A DNA stretch of 63,565 nucleotides, counting the filler, from Octopus bimaculoides (Eukaryota): assembly GCF_001194135.2 (NCBI RefSeq). It is 4 parts of 4 records of this genome, joined end to end, with 100 filler letters (N's around TTAATTAATTAA, not from the genome) between each part and the next. Parts side by side here need not be neighbours in the genome. Positions count along the whole stretch, not along the records: positions 1 to 20,919 come from NC_068998.1; positions 21,020 to 44,785 come from NC_068981.1; 2 more parts are not named here. One strand, 5' to 3'. A program made the position numbers and the translations under genes. The stretch's first letter is position 1. Every line of letters starts with the position of its first letter. Positions 3,129-28,662 of the stretch are shown here, piece by piece. The notes under the pieces were generated by a model. The model did not search any database. It had not been told where the DNA came from and was given only the letters and a program-made list of their open reading frames with translations.

Positions 3129-3173
3129 TGTTCTAACTAGTTTCATCGCTATTTAAAAATTCATCAGAGAACA
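3129..3173 (-). ncRNA. Minimal type-I hammerhead ribozyme-like motif
   Basis: Minus strand: tgttct CTGATGA atttttaaatagcgat GAAAC ta GTT agaaca; 6-bp perfect stem I, palindromic AACTAGTT, weak stem II. Confidence 0.55.
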
Positions 3174-5076
3174 AGTATCAGCATTTTTGCATATAGTAGA
3201 GCAATAGATAACTTATTGCTATTTATATCAAGCACAAACCAGAACTTTGTTAAAGTTAAAAATAACAAGTCTAAATTTCATAACTGTATTCACTAGTAGA
3301 TCAAGGTATTAAGGATGAAGATAAAAAGAAATCTATGAATAATATAATGGTAGATGGAACATCCGTGTACGTGCACGCACACACATACATATATCAACAA
3401 ACATATTTCTCAATGTAACAGCATTTATAAAAAGAAAAATATTGAGGAACTTGCCAGGATCCGAATCAGAAATCTTTTTATTCATTGTGAAATGTCTTAT
3501 CAATTGTTAGCCTTCAATTAAATAAAAAAAAAAAAAAAAAAACATGGCTGAAACAGCTGTAGTGAATCTCAGCCCATCAGTGTTATTATTTATGAATACA
3601 TCTATATATGTTTACACTCTCATGCATATAATTACCTGTATATCCTTTTAAGGACAAATACACACACAAATATATGCGTATATGTATACAATAAAATTTA
3701 TAAAGTGCTTATTACACAGAGTGGTCATGTGCACTACAATACAAAATACAGATAAAATATATATATAAACATGTATAATCACAGATATTCATACATACAC
3801 ATACATGCACATATATATATATATATATATATATATATATATATATATATATATATATATATATATATAGTTATAGGGTGGATGCAAAGTAGGTATGCAT
3901 CAAAGATTGGTAATAAAATCCATATTACTTTTACAAATTTATTGAAAACAAATCATACATGTTCTTTATTACATGGGGAAAATGAAAGTAAATCTTCATA
4001 TTTCAATGTAGAGACAAACCACCCACCTCGTATTACAGGCATCAGTCTTTCTACAACTCCATTCTGCTCTCTCAACTGAGCTACTGAATGACATATATAC
4101 ACAGGTACATAAATGTATGTGCGTAAAAGAACCAATCAAATTTGGGGTGGGGGTGTTGCAGAAACACGTGTACTTCTTAAGTGTGGTGTAATGATGATAC
4201 TGCATTTGAACATATTTTTGTGAACGTATTCTTGTATGATAACAGATTGCTTACTTACTTATCTTAGCCTTGTATTATAATGATGTGTAGGAGATACGAT
4301 ATCTATACAGAGTCTAGTGATGAAAACCATCGTGCAGTGGAAGTTGTTGCTAAAATAAGAAAGTAGGTTTCTCATATATGTGTGTGCATATGCATGTTGA
4401 TGAAAATGTATGTGTTTATGTGCACATGTTTAGTAACTATGTCTATTAGAACATATGTGTACATACACACACAAATTTGTGTGTATGTGTGTGTGTGTGT
4501 GTGTGTGTGTGTGTGTGTGCGTAGACATTTACAAGAGAAAAGTTACACAATGTGCCTCCCCAGACTAAAGATATAAATATTATATATTAATTATTAAATA
4601 TACAAAACTATTTCCCATTTACTATAAAATAAAAAGAAAAAAGATGATGAATTCATTCATAGAAATCAGCTTAAAATCAATGCATGGAATTCATTAGATT
4701 TTCATGTTGGACACCGACATAATTATCGCTGCCTTTCAAGTTCAAAATATACACTTAGTATGTAATATCATTATTGCCATTTGCCATGAGTCCAGCCCCA
4801 AAATGAATTACATATATTGTCATGAACGCTCATATTGTTCTGCCTTTTGTTAAGTGATGTTACAGTCGCAAAGATTAATCACGCATGTGTTACATTGCAT
4901 GTTGTGGGTGATTCAGATTATTTTTAAAGAAATGTTCTTTTTTTATGCTGTGAATAGGTGAATATATAAAATAGTAGTAAAGGACACACACACACACACA
5001 CACACACACACACACACACATGCTTATAAGAAATTTGGATGATAAAAGAATAAACAGTCATGTAATGAAGTTTATT

Positions 5077-5144
5077 AACTTACAGTTGTTTCTGCTATAA
5101 GATGCAATGCACTCAAATTTGAGTGCTTCAGCTTCATCAGAACT
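5077..5144 (-). ncRNA. Type-I hammerhead ribozyme-like motif with extended stem II
   Basis: Minus strand: agtt CTGATGA agct..gcactcaaatttgagtgc..agca GAAAC aact GTA agtt; stem I has two G-U pairs. Confidence 0.45.
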
Positions 5145-25683: not shown

Positions 25684-28621
25684 ATATATATATATATATA
25701 TNNNNNNNNNNNNNNNNNNNNNNNNNNNNNNNNNNNNNNNNNNNNNNNNNNNNNNNNNNNNNNNNNNNNNNNNNNNNNNNNNNNNNNNNNNNNNNNNNNN
25801 NNNNNNNNNNNNNNNNNNNNNNNNNNNNNNNNNNNNNNNNNNNNNNNNNNNNNNNNNNNNNNNNNNNNNNNNNNNNNNNNNNNNNNNNNNNNNNNNNNNN
25901 NNNNNNNNNNNNNNNNNNNNNNNNNNNNNNNNNNNNNNNNNNNNNNNNNNNNNNNNNNNNNNNNNNNNNNNNNNNNNNNNNNNNNNNNNNNNNNNNNNNN
26001 NNNNNNNNNNNNNNNNNNNNNNNNNNNNNNNNNNNNNNNNNNNNNNNNNNNNNNNNNNNNNNNNNNNNNNNNNNNNNNNNNNNNNNNNNNNNNNNNNNNN
26101 NNNNNNNNNNNNNNNNNNNNNNNNNNNNNNNNNNNNNNNNNNNNNNNNNNNNNNNNNNNNNNNNNNNNNNNNNNNNNNNNNNNNNNNNNNNNNNNNNNNN
26201 NNNNNNNNNNNNNNNNNNNNNNNNNNNNNNNNNNNNNNNNNNNNNNNNNNNNNNNNNNNNNNNNNNNNNNNNNNNNNNNNNNNNNNNNNNNNNNNNNNNN
26301 NNNNNNNNNNNNNNNNNNNNNNNNTATATATATATATATATATACGTACATACATACATACATACATACATACATACATACATGCATACATACATGCATA
26401 CATACATACACACATATATACAATTATATTATGCTTTACATCAGATAACTTATGCTGTGCTTATAATCGTGCATTTTGGGGGCTTCGGAAAATATTTGGG
26501 GTAATGAAGTCACATGTTCCAACTAGATTTTTGTGTTTTTGAATTTATGTCCTCGATTCTAGAAACGCCTAGTCTTTCGTAAATCTCAATAAATCTCATT
26601 CACGTGTATAGTTTTGCTACATGCATAATGGCGTCACTTTGGCAAAACAATCTGCAGAGACTAACAATGCGTCACATTATCCAGCATGTGAAATTTTGTG
26701 TATGCAATTATCATTAACTTATCTGCAATCAATATGTTGTGTATAACACAGAAAAGTTGTACAAGAACTTTACATACCTTTACATAGTAAAAATACAACA
26801 AAACTGACAACTAAAGAAAAATCAACTATCAATTATAGTCAGGTTCAGTTATTCGCAAATAAATTAAATACACATGGCTAATCCTTAAATAACAAACACT
26901 GTGTTGCTTTTTTTAAACTTTTCTAACAACGTAAATTGAAACTGAAATGTCTCCAATGTGAATTCTAAACCAATTTACCATTTCTAATTTCTATTAACTT
27001 TTTTCATGCATTTTTAATTCGCAAATTAGCATGTCTATAGAGACAATATTATGACAGGAAAAATAAGAATGTCACTTACATTTACAATTTCCGATAGTAA
27101 CCTAAGATAACAAAAATACTTCTCAATAATAATCGAAAGAGCTTTACTACAGAGGAATCTATGAGAAAATTTATCATAAATTTATTATCTGATACATCAA
27201 TATACTTTCGTTCGTTTCTACGTCTTGAACGAAATATGTAGCTGCGAACGATAGCTAATTAATTCTAAAGATTAATTTTGATAGTCCGCACAGTTTCGGA
27301 AACACGCGTAACATAATGTACATCTTGATAGAATAATCGTCAAGTCAAAAGCATTTCAGTCATAATCACCCCAACATTTTGTATCTGTAAATGTCTTCTT
27401 ACATTATTGTATTGTTACTTATTCAAATAAAAGTAGGTGCGACAAAAGCTTTACAGTTTAAGAACATAATGCGTATTATGTAAGAGGTTTTCCGATATGC
27501 AGCTTGTCCACAAAAACACTCCCTGATTTCACGTTGTTATGATATTTAAACTAATTCAAATATATTGATAAACATGTTGTGAACCGATTCTCGAACAACA
27601 GTTATCTCCTTTTTTTTCTTTTTTTTTTCAGATTATTAGACATCTTTGATCTGAAAACCACAAGGATAGAAGGAAATCTAAAAACGACCACCACCACAGC
27701 AACACAGCTGATGTGTACTCGAATTTGCAAAATTAAACAGTGTTGTGGCCGTGCAACGTGCTTTCAGACTCAAGTATTATACTATTACACTTACATCCAA
27801 GTCCACTCGGAAATGGTACCATGATTTTAATCAGTAAGGGTGTATCTGTGATAAGAGAAAGGGACATTCTGGCGGAGAACCACTCTACATAAACAGTAGA
27901 TACGTTTCCTGCAATACAGACAGATTTCTTTAAGTAAGCACATAGAGAGATGTGCAGGTAACATCAAACCAAGTATCACAGTTCTCCCCTTCTACGAATG
28001 CAAGGATACAATTTCTATGCAAGAACGTTTAAGTAAAGAAAACTCATTCATCGAAAAATAAAGAACACGCCTAATTATGCACGTATAACCAACTTTGATC
28101 TCTGTGCATATTTTAATTCACAATTAGATACCTATCACTGTACATATTCCACCGCACTACTCTAGCTTTTTAATTTTTGTGTATATATTATCCGCCTCCA
28201 ACCGAAAGATGAACAATTATCTCCCCTGTCCACAATAATAACGATCACTAATTACCTCCCCATAGATTTTTCTACTTGTTCAATTTCATTCATAAACTCC
28301 ACAAAAAAACATGGACAAAAACTTTTTCTTAAGAAAATACGTAATTAAAATAATTTTAATGTCAAGATTAACAAAAGCGAAACCGGTCGACAAACAATGT
28401 AAAACATATTTTAAAATATATTAGAACTATGTAAAGTGTGTGCGTTTTCCTCCTTTCATTTTATATATATATATATATATATATATATATATATATATAT
28501 ATATATATATATATATATATATATATATATGTGTGTGTGTGTGTATTAGACAAAATGAAATAGAGCCAAGCCTGTGAGTAGTTTTTAGGATATTTATAAG
28601 GAAAAATATATAGATATAGTT

Positions 28622-28662
28622 TTACAGCTGTTTCTGGAATATTATGGATATCCTTTCATCAG
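28622..28662 (-). ncRNA. Hammerhead ribozyme-like core at the edge of a probable Penelope-like repeat
   Basis: Minus strand: CTGATGA a aggatat ccata atattcc a GAAAC agct GTA; palindromic ACAGCTGT; stem I not supported in this copy. Confidence 0.5.

What the first reader, a model, noticed from the sequence alone, without database searches (positions are those of the whole stretch)
3129..28662. Five dispersed hammerhead-ribozyme-like motifs, four with palindromic stem-III tips: a possible Penelope/retrozyme-derived self-cleaving RNA layer
Motifs at 3129(-), 5077(-), 6309(-), 13388(+) and 28622(-) each have CTGA-N-GA (one with an extra A), a stem II, GAAA-Y, a tiny stem III and a GTH triplet. 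Four have self-complementary tips (TA, TCGA, AGCT, AGCT). My rough estimate for chance co-occurrence in ~55 kb of AT-rich sequence is well under one. Known: Penelope-like elements and non-LTR retrozymes carry minimal type-I hammerheads whose palindromic loop 3 lets them act as dimers. Here the copies are solo, differ in stems I and II, and lack nearby RT or GIY-YIG ORFs, suggesting several unannotated hammerhead-bearing families. If the window is one large intron, four antisense and one sense cleavage motifs could affect nascent RNA or produce small circular RNAs.
Basis: partly seen in the sequence, partly recalled or inferred. Interest (0 to 1): 0.75.

Follow-up and report, generated by a model that had tools for sequence, protein, structure and literature searches.

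The report
Retrotransposon hammerheads, one with captured interior
The five motifs are real hammerhead-ribozyme folds left behind by five separate, mostly decayed jumping-gene families, which is a known arrangement, but the youngest carries an extra base in its catalytic core and a ribozyme interior matching an unrelated small parasitic repeat at 31 of 32 letters, likely captured from it, which would be a direct genomic trace of Penelope elements copying retrozyme RNA.

Summary
All five motifs exist and exceed shuffles. They are not one layer: four lie on contig C18 and one on C1, each in its own repeat family. M3 and M5 are 5'-truncated 3' ends of Penelope-like elements (PLEs) traced to an endonuclease. 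M2 and M4 have PLE anatomy with no ORF traced. M1 is an old, retrozyme-like unit. Four copies are decayed. Such motifs are common here (about 1.9 per window-length). This scan has reported PLE and retrozyme hammerheads on other DNA of this genome.

New here is M3. Its lineage gained one base between C3 and U4 (canonical, then C-U, then C-A; about 1,500 copies against 16). Later its interior, U4 to the cleavage site, was replaced by 32 nt matching a 351-nt tandem retrozyme at 31 of 32, with no homology outside. One copy is fused directly to that retrozyme. None of 70 M3 or 50 M5 copies starts at the cleavage site, and RNA reads show no ends there. Cleavage is untested; no host role is supported.

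The parts
3129..3173 (-). M1: hammerhead fold with canonical core, TA tip, stem I 6 bp, weak 3-bp stem II; decayed copy of an old, roughly 300-nt retrozyme-like family (BLAST match 3131-3245; by eye about 3040-3300)
5025..5181 (-). M2 element (hammerhead 5077-5144): stub of a fold-back family with PLE anatomy; this copy has a 13-14 nt deletion in stem II and an AGCT-to-AACT tip change; no ORF traced
6014..6366 (-). M3 element: 5'-truncated 3' end of a young RT + GIY-YIG PLE, including the optional tail, ending in (TA)n
6344..6344 (-). Extra A between C3 (6345) and U4 (6343), fixed in the family; U in a minor subfamily; absent in a 16-copy canonical subfamily
6312..6343 (-). M3 ribozyme interior (U4 to C17), 31 of 32 identical to an unrelated 351-nt tandem retrozyme; predicted cleavage site between 6312 and 6311
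6309..6348 (-). M3 hammerhead including its own 3-bp stem I arms, which are shared with the rest of the PLE lineage and not with the retrozyme
13375..13750 (+). M4 element (hammerhead 13388-13469): 5'-truncated stub with a long stem II and optional 3' extension; family often fold-back; no ORF traced
28526..29824 (-). M5 element (hammerhead 28622-28663): 3' UTR and end of a Hydra-like PLE, cut just short of the endonuclease; five changes from the family, stem I reduced to 1 bp and the base of stem II broken
27864..28085 (+). Decayed GIY-YIG endonuclease end of a sixth PLE (72% to L010, 42% to P0002), tail to tail with M5
28379..28388 (+). Half hammerhead (GAAA, palindromic tip, GUC) of the sixth element; the CUGA box is lost
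20920..21019 (.). Pack joint: M1-M4 (contig C18) and M5 (contig C1) are not neighbours in the genome

Best explanation
The five motifs are hammerhead folds carried by solo, mostly decayed copies of five separate repeat families, two traced to Penelope-like retrotransposons (M3, M5), two likely so (M2, M4) and one likely an old retrozyme (M1), and the youngest, M3, is a likely chimera whose ribozyme interior was probably captured from a retrozyme by the element's own reverse transcriptase. Mechanism: a PLE reverse transcriptase primes at a nick in (TA)n DNA, starts in the tail just 3' of the hammerhead (from the literature, PMC11167929), copies back through it and usually stops early, leaving stubs that are often fold-backs (anatomy shown). 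The templates were uncut or re-joined, because copies span the cleavage site (shown). The palindromic tips would let two RNAs pair into a dimeric ribozyme in the parent elements (inferred from compensatory changes and PMC4209133). In the M3 lineage one base was inserted between C3 and U4 (shown; order inferred from a midpoint-rooted tree and branch lengths). Then U4 to C17 was replaced in one step by the retrozyme's version (identity shown; single step and direction inferred), most likely by two template switches at short shared words (inferred). The lineage amplified to about 1,500 copies afterwards, so either the extra base is tolerated or cleavage is dispensable for insertion; I favour weak or dispensable cleavage at about 60:40 (untested).
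For: Families: 763, 1,099, 329 and 1,409 first-look candidates for M5, M3, M4, M2; 6 matches at 68-74% for the M1 family. Fixed 3' ends, ragged 5' ends, optional tails and (TA)n flanks. Opposite-strand second copies in 11 of 24 M4, 3 of 24 M2 and 5 of 29 M5 loci. M3: 4 of 30 long copies run into an endonuclease end, Pfam GIY-YIG E 7e-7, 64-65% identical to 698-aa proteins, one of them with RVT_1 and GIY-YIG. M5: 7 of 24 long copies have a same-strand endonuclease-like frame upstream with Hydra motifs by eye (against PMC8557442 section 11). Cleavage site spanned: M3 53 of 70 span, 11 in gaps, 6 end downstream, 0 start at it; M5 48 of 50 span by eye, 0 start at it. Insertion series: 16 canonical copies, 6 C-U among the first 100 listed and 523 C-W-UGAUGA hits, 958 M3-type hits. 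M3 nests in the C-A sister group (99/96), whose monophyly is rejected (p-AU 0.0003). The M3 interior is 16 edits from the sister and 1 from the retrozyme, on a branch of 0.016 changes per site. No homology outside the 32 nt. Top of 78 flank-defined family pairs at 0.97, next 0.78. L590 joins about 300 nt of that retrozyme, same strand, to the 5' end of an M3 copy at a shared GTC.
Against: No ORF was traced for M1, M2 or M4. M5's endonuclease matched neither Pfam nor the protein database, so its label rests on motifs read by eye. No full-length tandem PLE was found. No single-crossover intermediate among 30 loci holding the shared 32-mer. A third, flank-unrelated family (L181) has a similar stem II and loop, so the exact donor could be a relative and part of the match may be a common canonical form. 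L590 could be an insertion into an existing retrozyme copy with a deletion of about 60 nt. The tree has no outgroup and the flanks may be mosaic. Catalytic cores are less diverged than flanks in M3, M5 and M2, which fits selection on successive master elements but was not separated from selection in the host. Rfam found no hammerhead for M1, M3 or M5.
Confidence: 0.72

Rival explanations
1. Same origin for all five, but the M3 interior came from the retrozyme by DNA-level gene conversion or repair rather than by the PLE reverse transcriptase, so it says nothing about which enzyme copies retrozymes.
For: A 32-nt internal replacement needs two crossovers, which conversion gives in one event; no single-crossover intermediates in 30 loci.
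Against: The flanks share no homology to seed conversion. The family often makes 5' inversions, a sign of switching. One same-strand M3-retrozyme fusion exists; retrozyme sequence lies in 3 distinct M3-lineage loci against 0 of 231 other loci (too few to be significant).
Confidence: 0.13
2. The M3-retrozyme match is convergence on a common canonical hammerhead interior.
For: About 11 of the 32 letters are forced by the core; family L181 has a similar stem II and loop with unrelated flanks; M1's family also has an AAATA loop.
Against: 16 edits from the sister group on a 0.016 branch. The match includes N7, the 6-nt palindrome (one of two main tip variants in the retrozyme) and H17. Next best unrelated pair is 0.78.
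Confidence: 0.06
3. One reading: the host uses these solo motifs to cut nascent RNA or make small circles at this locus.
For: Motifs exceed chance; M3 is intact relative to its family; cores are less diverged than flanks in three families; the window holds 5 against about 1.9 expected (Poisson p about 0.04, worked by hand).
Against: Two contigs; four decayed copies; solo minimal hammerheads did not cleave in PMC4209133; almost no reads on unique flanks; no read ends piled at the M3 site and no head-to-tail joints; the window was picked for this feature; 0 motifs in 29.5 kb of adjacent DNA.
Confidence: 0.04
4. M1, M2 and M4 are not PLE ends but short non-autonomous families mobilised in trans, with no ORF-bearing parent.
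For: No ORF reached after one upstream walk for M2 and M4; M1 has head-to-tail units about 290 nt apart in L322, 1 of 6 loci.
Against: M2 and M4 keep extending upstream in longer copies, into pyrimidine-rich or microsatellite UTR-like DNA as M5 does; fold-backs and tails are PLE signatures. This rival is compatible with the best explanation for M3 and M5.
Confidence: 0.3

Closest known systems
Minimal type-I hammerheads of metazoan Penelope-like elements (Cervera and de la Pena 2014, PMC4209133; parts 1-2 of 4 and part 2 of supplement 2 read)
   Same: Thousands of mostly solo motifs in many families, short stem I, an unpaired base between positions 9 and 10.1, palindromic loop 3, opposite-strand pairs 100-700 bp apart; molluscs included.
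   Different: No insertion between C3 and U4 in the text or in the part of the alignment I read; no ribozyme exchange with retrozymes.
Hydra-clade PLEs (Craig et al. 2021, PMC8557442; section 11, passages, File S1/S2 part 2, supplement passages)
   Same: M5: CxCX5C linker, CxxC and CxH motifs, (TA)n insertion, and an unpaired base on both sides of stem II as in several File S2 rows.
   Different: M5's hammerhead differs from the listed Hydra-1_oBim one; its 3' UTR is about 2 kb with internal microsatellites; RWK and DKT motifs were not checked.
Neptune/Nematis-type PLEs with a C-terminal GIY-YIG (definitions from PMC8557442 passages); mechanism from the anole Poseidon element (PMC11167929, parts 1-2 of 4)
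   Same: M3: CX4CxxC linker and CCHH pattern, optional tail, uncut RNA as template, no RNA-seq ends at the cleavage site.
   Different: Extra core base and a foreign ribozyme interior; the clade was not fixed by a tree.
Metazoan non-LTR retrozymes (PMC7229834, passages; bioRxiv 10.64898/2026.07.22.740005, parts 1 and 3 of 5 plus passages)
   Same: The donor family has 351-nt head-to-tail units, a canonical hammerhead with a long stem I, and no ORF. These papers propose PLEs as the mobilising partner, from co-occurrence and pLTR homology.
   Different: Here there is no pLTR homology, only a 32-nt module shared with one PLE subfamily, moving retrozyme to PLE, plus one direct fusion. Circular RNA is not shown.
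Natural hammerhead core variants (Perreault et al. 2011, PMC3088659; section 8 and passages)
   Same: Single-base insertions are known (A6a, U13a) as is a 2-nt insertion before C3 (2a/2b); A6a and 2a/2b show low or impaired activity.
   Different: An insertion between C3 and U4 is not in the passages read. Lunse et al. on PLE hammerhead variants could not be read and may cover it.

Membership tests
EN+ Penelope-like element (M3, M5) | RT plus C-terminal GIY-YIG frame upstream of the hammerhead on the same strand | tested here: met
   M3: with RT in sister copy L365 on an inverted piece. M5: endonuclease-like frame in 7 of 24 long copies, RT fragments in L206 and L259, identified by motif only.
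EN+ Penelope-like element (M1, M2, M4) | RT plus GIY-YIG frame upstream | tested here: inconclusive
   None reached in 25 + 25 + 6 loci; the walks stopped in microsatellites or gaps.
EN+ Penelope-like element (M2-M5) | Fixed 3' end, 5' truncation, inverted 5' copy, optional tail, microsatellite targets | tested here: met
EN+ Penelope-like element | Full-length tandem copy with two pLTRs | tested here: inconclusive
   5 candidate spacings inspected; none was a clean tandem.
Hydra clade (M5) | CxCX5C linker, CxxC and CxH, no CCHH | tested here: met
   Frames of L254 and L258 read by eye; no Pfam or database hit.
Hydra clade (M5) | RWK and DKT motifs; placement in an RT tree | not tested
   No N-terminal RT region of this family was recovered.
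Neptune/Nematis (M3) | CX2-5CxxC linker and CCHH endonuclease | tested here: met
Neptune/Nematis (M3) | Placement in an RT tree | not tested
   No reference proteins were at hand as usable sequences.
Non-LTR retrozyme (donor family, outside the window) | Head-to-tail units of about 200-400 nt, no ORF, canonical type-I hammerhead | tested here: met
   351-nt period, longest stop-free frame 83 aa, long stem I in the fold, 2,644 candidates.
Non-LTR retrozyme (M1) | Head-to-tail units with a canonical hammerhead | tested here: inconclusive
   Tandem in 1 of 6 loci; copies 68-74% alike.
Non-LTR retrozyme | Expressed as circular RNA | not tested
Canonical active hammerhead | Core CUGANGA...GAAA...UH without insertion | tested here: not met
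   Met for M1, M2, M4 and M5; not met for M3, which has an extra base.
Canonical active hammerhead | Paired stems I and II next to the core | tested here: not met
   Not met for the window's M5; weak for M1 and M2; met for M3 and M4.
Canonical active hammerhead | Self-cleavage | not testable with these tools
   Indirect tests found no cut ends.
Host-exapted intronic hammerhead (amniote HH9/HH10 type; name recalled) | Conserved at orthologous loci inside a gene | not testable with these tools
   No related genome is held; no exon or transcript found nearby.

The most novel reading that the evidence does not exclude
An autonomous Penelope-like element swapped the inside of its hammerhead for that of an unrelated retrozyme, by its own reverse transcriptase jumping onto retrozyme RNA and back, while keeping a one-base core insertion not found in print. 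This would be direct genomic evidence that PLE machinery copies retrozyme RNA and that ribozyme modules move between element classes. It also gives a four-step natural series (canonical, C-U, C-A, C-A with foreign interior) to test whether PLE hammerheads are kept for cutting or for pairing.
Probability: 0.55. Interest if true: 0.68.

Novelty: new variant of a known kind. Interest (0 to 1): 0.5.

Why it matters
The cluster itself is ordinary for a PLE-rich animal genome. M3 bears on two open questions. First, which enzyme mobilises animal retrozymes: the papers read argue for PLEs from co-occurrence and homology, and a captured module plus a fused insertion would be a physical trace. Second, what PLE hammerheads are for: PMC8557442 calls the function unclear, and PMC11167929 found cleavage unnecessary for insertion in vitro. 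A lineage that amplified about 100-fold after a core insertion, with a canonical sister in the same genome, makes that directly testable with four short RNAs. Standard descriptors also miss these roughly 1,500 copies.

Tried and rejected
Rfam on the whole window: 200 matches at E<=1, 150 shown, all miRNA or snoRNA models, the best of them on microsatellites; the 50 weakest were not shown. Rfam on M3, M5 and M1 alone: no hammerhead; M2 and M4 were not scanned alone. Repeat finder swamped by microsatellites and N runs.

My first descriptor missed four motifs because it allowed no bulge. I first read M3 as a short non-autonomous element with a fixed 5' end; rejected when longer copies led to an endonuclease. 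I then read M3's new stem II and palindrome as proof of selection on the fold after the insertion; weakened when the donor was found, since a swap keeps the fold automatically. The smaller compensatory changes between the canonical and C-U/C-A subfamilies still stand.

A search for other C-A cores with 4-nt tips gave 243 against 150 for the control, and no clear family with stems in the 20 loci read. A heterodimer cut-and-join origin for the swap was considered and set aside: the two palindromes and stem I arms do not match. Folding programs do not recover hammerhead shapes reliably; homodimer gains of 8-12 kcal/mol were not controlled and are not used.

Run search listed no holder on record as RNA; X7 and X1 may be DNA and are not used as evidence. 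No homolog for the M5 endonuclease. Look-ups of earlier findings by sequence and by words were blank. Lunse et al. is not held, and file 1 of the PMC4209133 supplement was not searchable; either may describe the C3-U4 insertion. Searches behind 'not found in print'. The species was not tested; 'octopus-like' comes from earlier scan notes.
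Full report
1. Observation. The window is a pack of four stretches. M1-M4 lie within 10.3 kb on contig C18 and M5 on C1. All five motifs are present as described. With a palindromic tip, or with stems I and II required, 4 are found against shuffled means of 0.04-0.11, reached in 0 of 150 shuffles; the loosest level is not significant. 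The descriptor was post hoc. Genome-wide, one AGCT-tip pattern gives 1,734 hits against 2 for its control and a 2-nt-tip pattern 3,415 against 1,828. In 414.5 kb flanking other fetched loci the same criterion finds 14 motifs, about 1.9 per window-length, and 0 in 29.5 kb beside the window's two stretches. That sample is biased towards PLE-rich DNA. Five is a somewhat rich draw from a common class.

2. Five families. The five elements share no sequence beyond one short AT-rich match. M5 has 763 candidates, a fixed 3' end in (TA)n and ragged 5' ends. The window copy spans 28526-29824. Of 24 long copies, 7 carry a same-strand endonuclease-like frame upstream with CxCX5C, CxxC and CxH motifs, the Hydra-clade marks in PMC8557442 section 11. 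Its unpaired base on each side of stem II is also in that paper's File S2. Pfam and the protein database gave no hit for it. M3 has 1,099 candidates, the 39 best others matching at 98-100%; 4 of 30 long copies run into a GIY-YIG end that is 64-65% identical to 698-aa proteins, one of them annotated with RT and GIY-YIG. M2 and M4 show fold-backs (3 of 24 and 11 of 24 loci) and optional tails, but no ORF was reached. M1 belongs to an old family of 6 matches at 68-74%, one locus with head-to-tail units. A sixth, more decayed PLE end with an endonuclease remnant sits tail to tail with M5.

3. State of the window copies. Against the family majority, M5 has five changes that cut stem I to 1 bp and break the base of stem II. 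M2 has a 13-14 nt deletion and a broken palindrome. M4 has 8-10 changes, including wobbles beside the core. M3 matches its family across the ribozyme. M1 has a weak stem II compared with relatives. Cores are less diverged than flanks in M5 (0.042 against 0.119 in copies picked by upstream sequence), M3 and M2, but not in M4. I read this as selection on successive master elements; it was not separated from host selection.

4. No sign of cutting or of a host transcript. In copies picked only by a downstream motif, 0 of 70 M3 copies start at the cleavage site (53 span it, 11 fall in gaps, 6 end downstream). For M5 the script gave 44 spanning, 2 near the site and 4 downstream; by eye four of those six carry mutated sequence upstream of the site, giving 48 spanning, 2 downstream and 0 at the site. 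Three RNA runs, about 6% of each read, gave 270, 223 and 151 reads on the M3 stretch, in both orientations, with no pile-up of ends and no head-to-tail joint; most of these reads run on into other sequence, and ordinary cDNA libraries can miss such ends and circles. Unique DNA at 2560-8455 drew almost no reads, and 0 of 106 frames matched Pfam. This agrees with PMC11167929, where uncut RNA was the main substrate and catalytic mutants still inserted.

5. The extra base. In 60 M3 copies picked without regard to upstream sequence, 57 have CA before the core in family context and 3 are truncated there. A sister subfamily first seen as loose read ends has the same flanks, stem I and C-A insertion, but a different stem II and an 8-nt palindrome. 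A minor subfamily has C-U (6 of the first 100 hits listed). A 16-copy subfamily has the canonical core and links to the endonuclease (L398). Between the canonical and insertion subfamilies, stem II and the palindrome differ by compensatory changes. A tree of flanks alone (32 rows: 7 canonical, 1 C-U, 12 of 17 sister, 12 of 26 M3; rows with gaps dropped) forms a ladder from canonical to M3 with the shortest end branches in M3. It is midpoint-rooted, so the order is inferred. The varying identity of the base (A or U) suggests it is looped out with C3-G8 kept (inference). I did not find this insertion in print; Lunse et al. was unavailable.

6. The captured interior. M3 nests within the sister group (99/96; sister monophyly rejected, p-AU 0.0003), yet its interior is 16 edits from the sister's on a branch of 0.016 changes per site. 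A search for a canonical version found a different family with the same interior at 31 of 32 and no other homology. That family is a retrozyme by anatomy: 351-nt head-to-tail units, no ORF, long stem I, two covarying palindromic tips, 2,644 candidates. An older relative has a similar interior (L403), so the interior is native there. The shared stretch starts within U4-G5-A6 and ends within three positions that include the cleavage site; each partner keeps its own stem I arms. Among 78 flank-defined family pairs it scores 0.97, the next 0.78. Of 30 loci with the shared 32-mer, 15 are retrozyme on both sides and 15 PLE on both sides (5 of the 30 with mutated arms), and none is mixed. One of 70 M3 copies has about 300 nt of the retrozyme fused to its 5' end on the same strand at a shared GTC, and the retrozyme does not resume after the element (L566/L590). 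Template switching explains both most simply; conversion for the first, and insertion with deletion for the second, remain open.

7. Mechanism and verdict. Shown: family membership, stub anatomy, decay, the insertion series, the 31/32 identity and the fusion. Inferred: order and direction of events, template switching, and dimer function. Untested: cleavage. The five-motif cluster is a new instance of what PMC4209133 described, and earlier notes of this scan report like cases elsewhere in this genome; those notes gave me the Hydra and retrozyme leads, which I checked in part. The host-layer reading is unsupported. The M3 lineage is a new variant: a core insertion plus a likely retrozyme-to-PLE ribozyme transfer, not found in searches. 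Interest 0.5.

Noticed in passing
window 3545-3600 (+): Half hammerhead (GAAA, AGCT tip, GUA) after a poly(A) run; flanks match another repeat family (L205, L291, L350).
   Followed up: partly
window 60500-60600 (+): Half hammerhead with a palindromic tip; about 70-74% matches in L390 and L104, probably another decayed family.
   Followed up: partly
window 24897-25172 (-): Weak endonuclease-like remnant (E about 0.006 to P0003), possibly another PLE end.
   Followed up: partly
window 32725-33786 (+), 41094-42130 (-), 61474-62366 (+): Broken non-LTR retrotransposon frames; 41651-42130 matches Pfam RVT_1 at E 2e-6.
   Followed up: partly
window 45762-46163 (+): Mariner-type transposase fragment (Pfam HTH_48, E 7e-14).
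   Followed up: partly
window about 21100-21170 and L210 7930-8070: 24-nt tandem repeat at and just before the start of the second stretch.
   Followed up: no
window 9390-10050: Long degenerate (GAT)n tract with a fold-back portion near 9770-10050.
   Followed up: no
window 5190-5460 (-): A separate repeat abuts the 5' side of M2 and appears inverted beside an M2 copy in L097.
   Followed up: no
L224, L230-L232: The 3' UTR of the M3 family holds an internal duplication of about 110 nt between the endonuclease stop and the hammerhead.
   Followed up: no
L181 and L403: Two further families carry a stem II and loop like the donor retrozyme's; L403 has related flanks, L181 does not.
   Followed up: partly
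G000: Many more hammerhead families with long or branched stem II and varied palindromic tips; an uncatalogued set of thousands of motifs.
   Followed up: no
L014 77-538 (+): Exon of a sodium:neurotransmitter symporter gene (Pfam SNF) about 1 kb from an M5-family copy, so some copies lie next to host exons.
   Followed up: no
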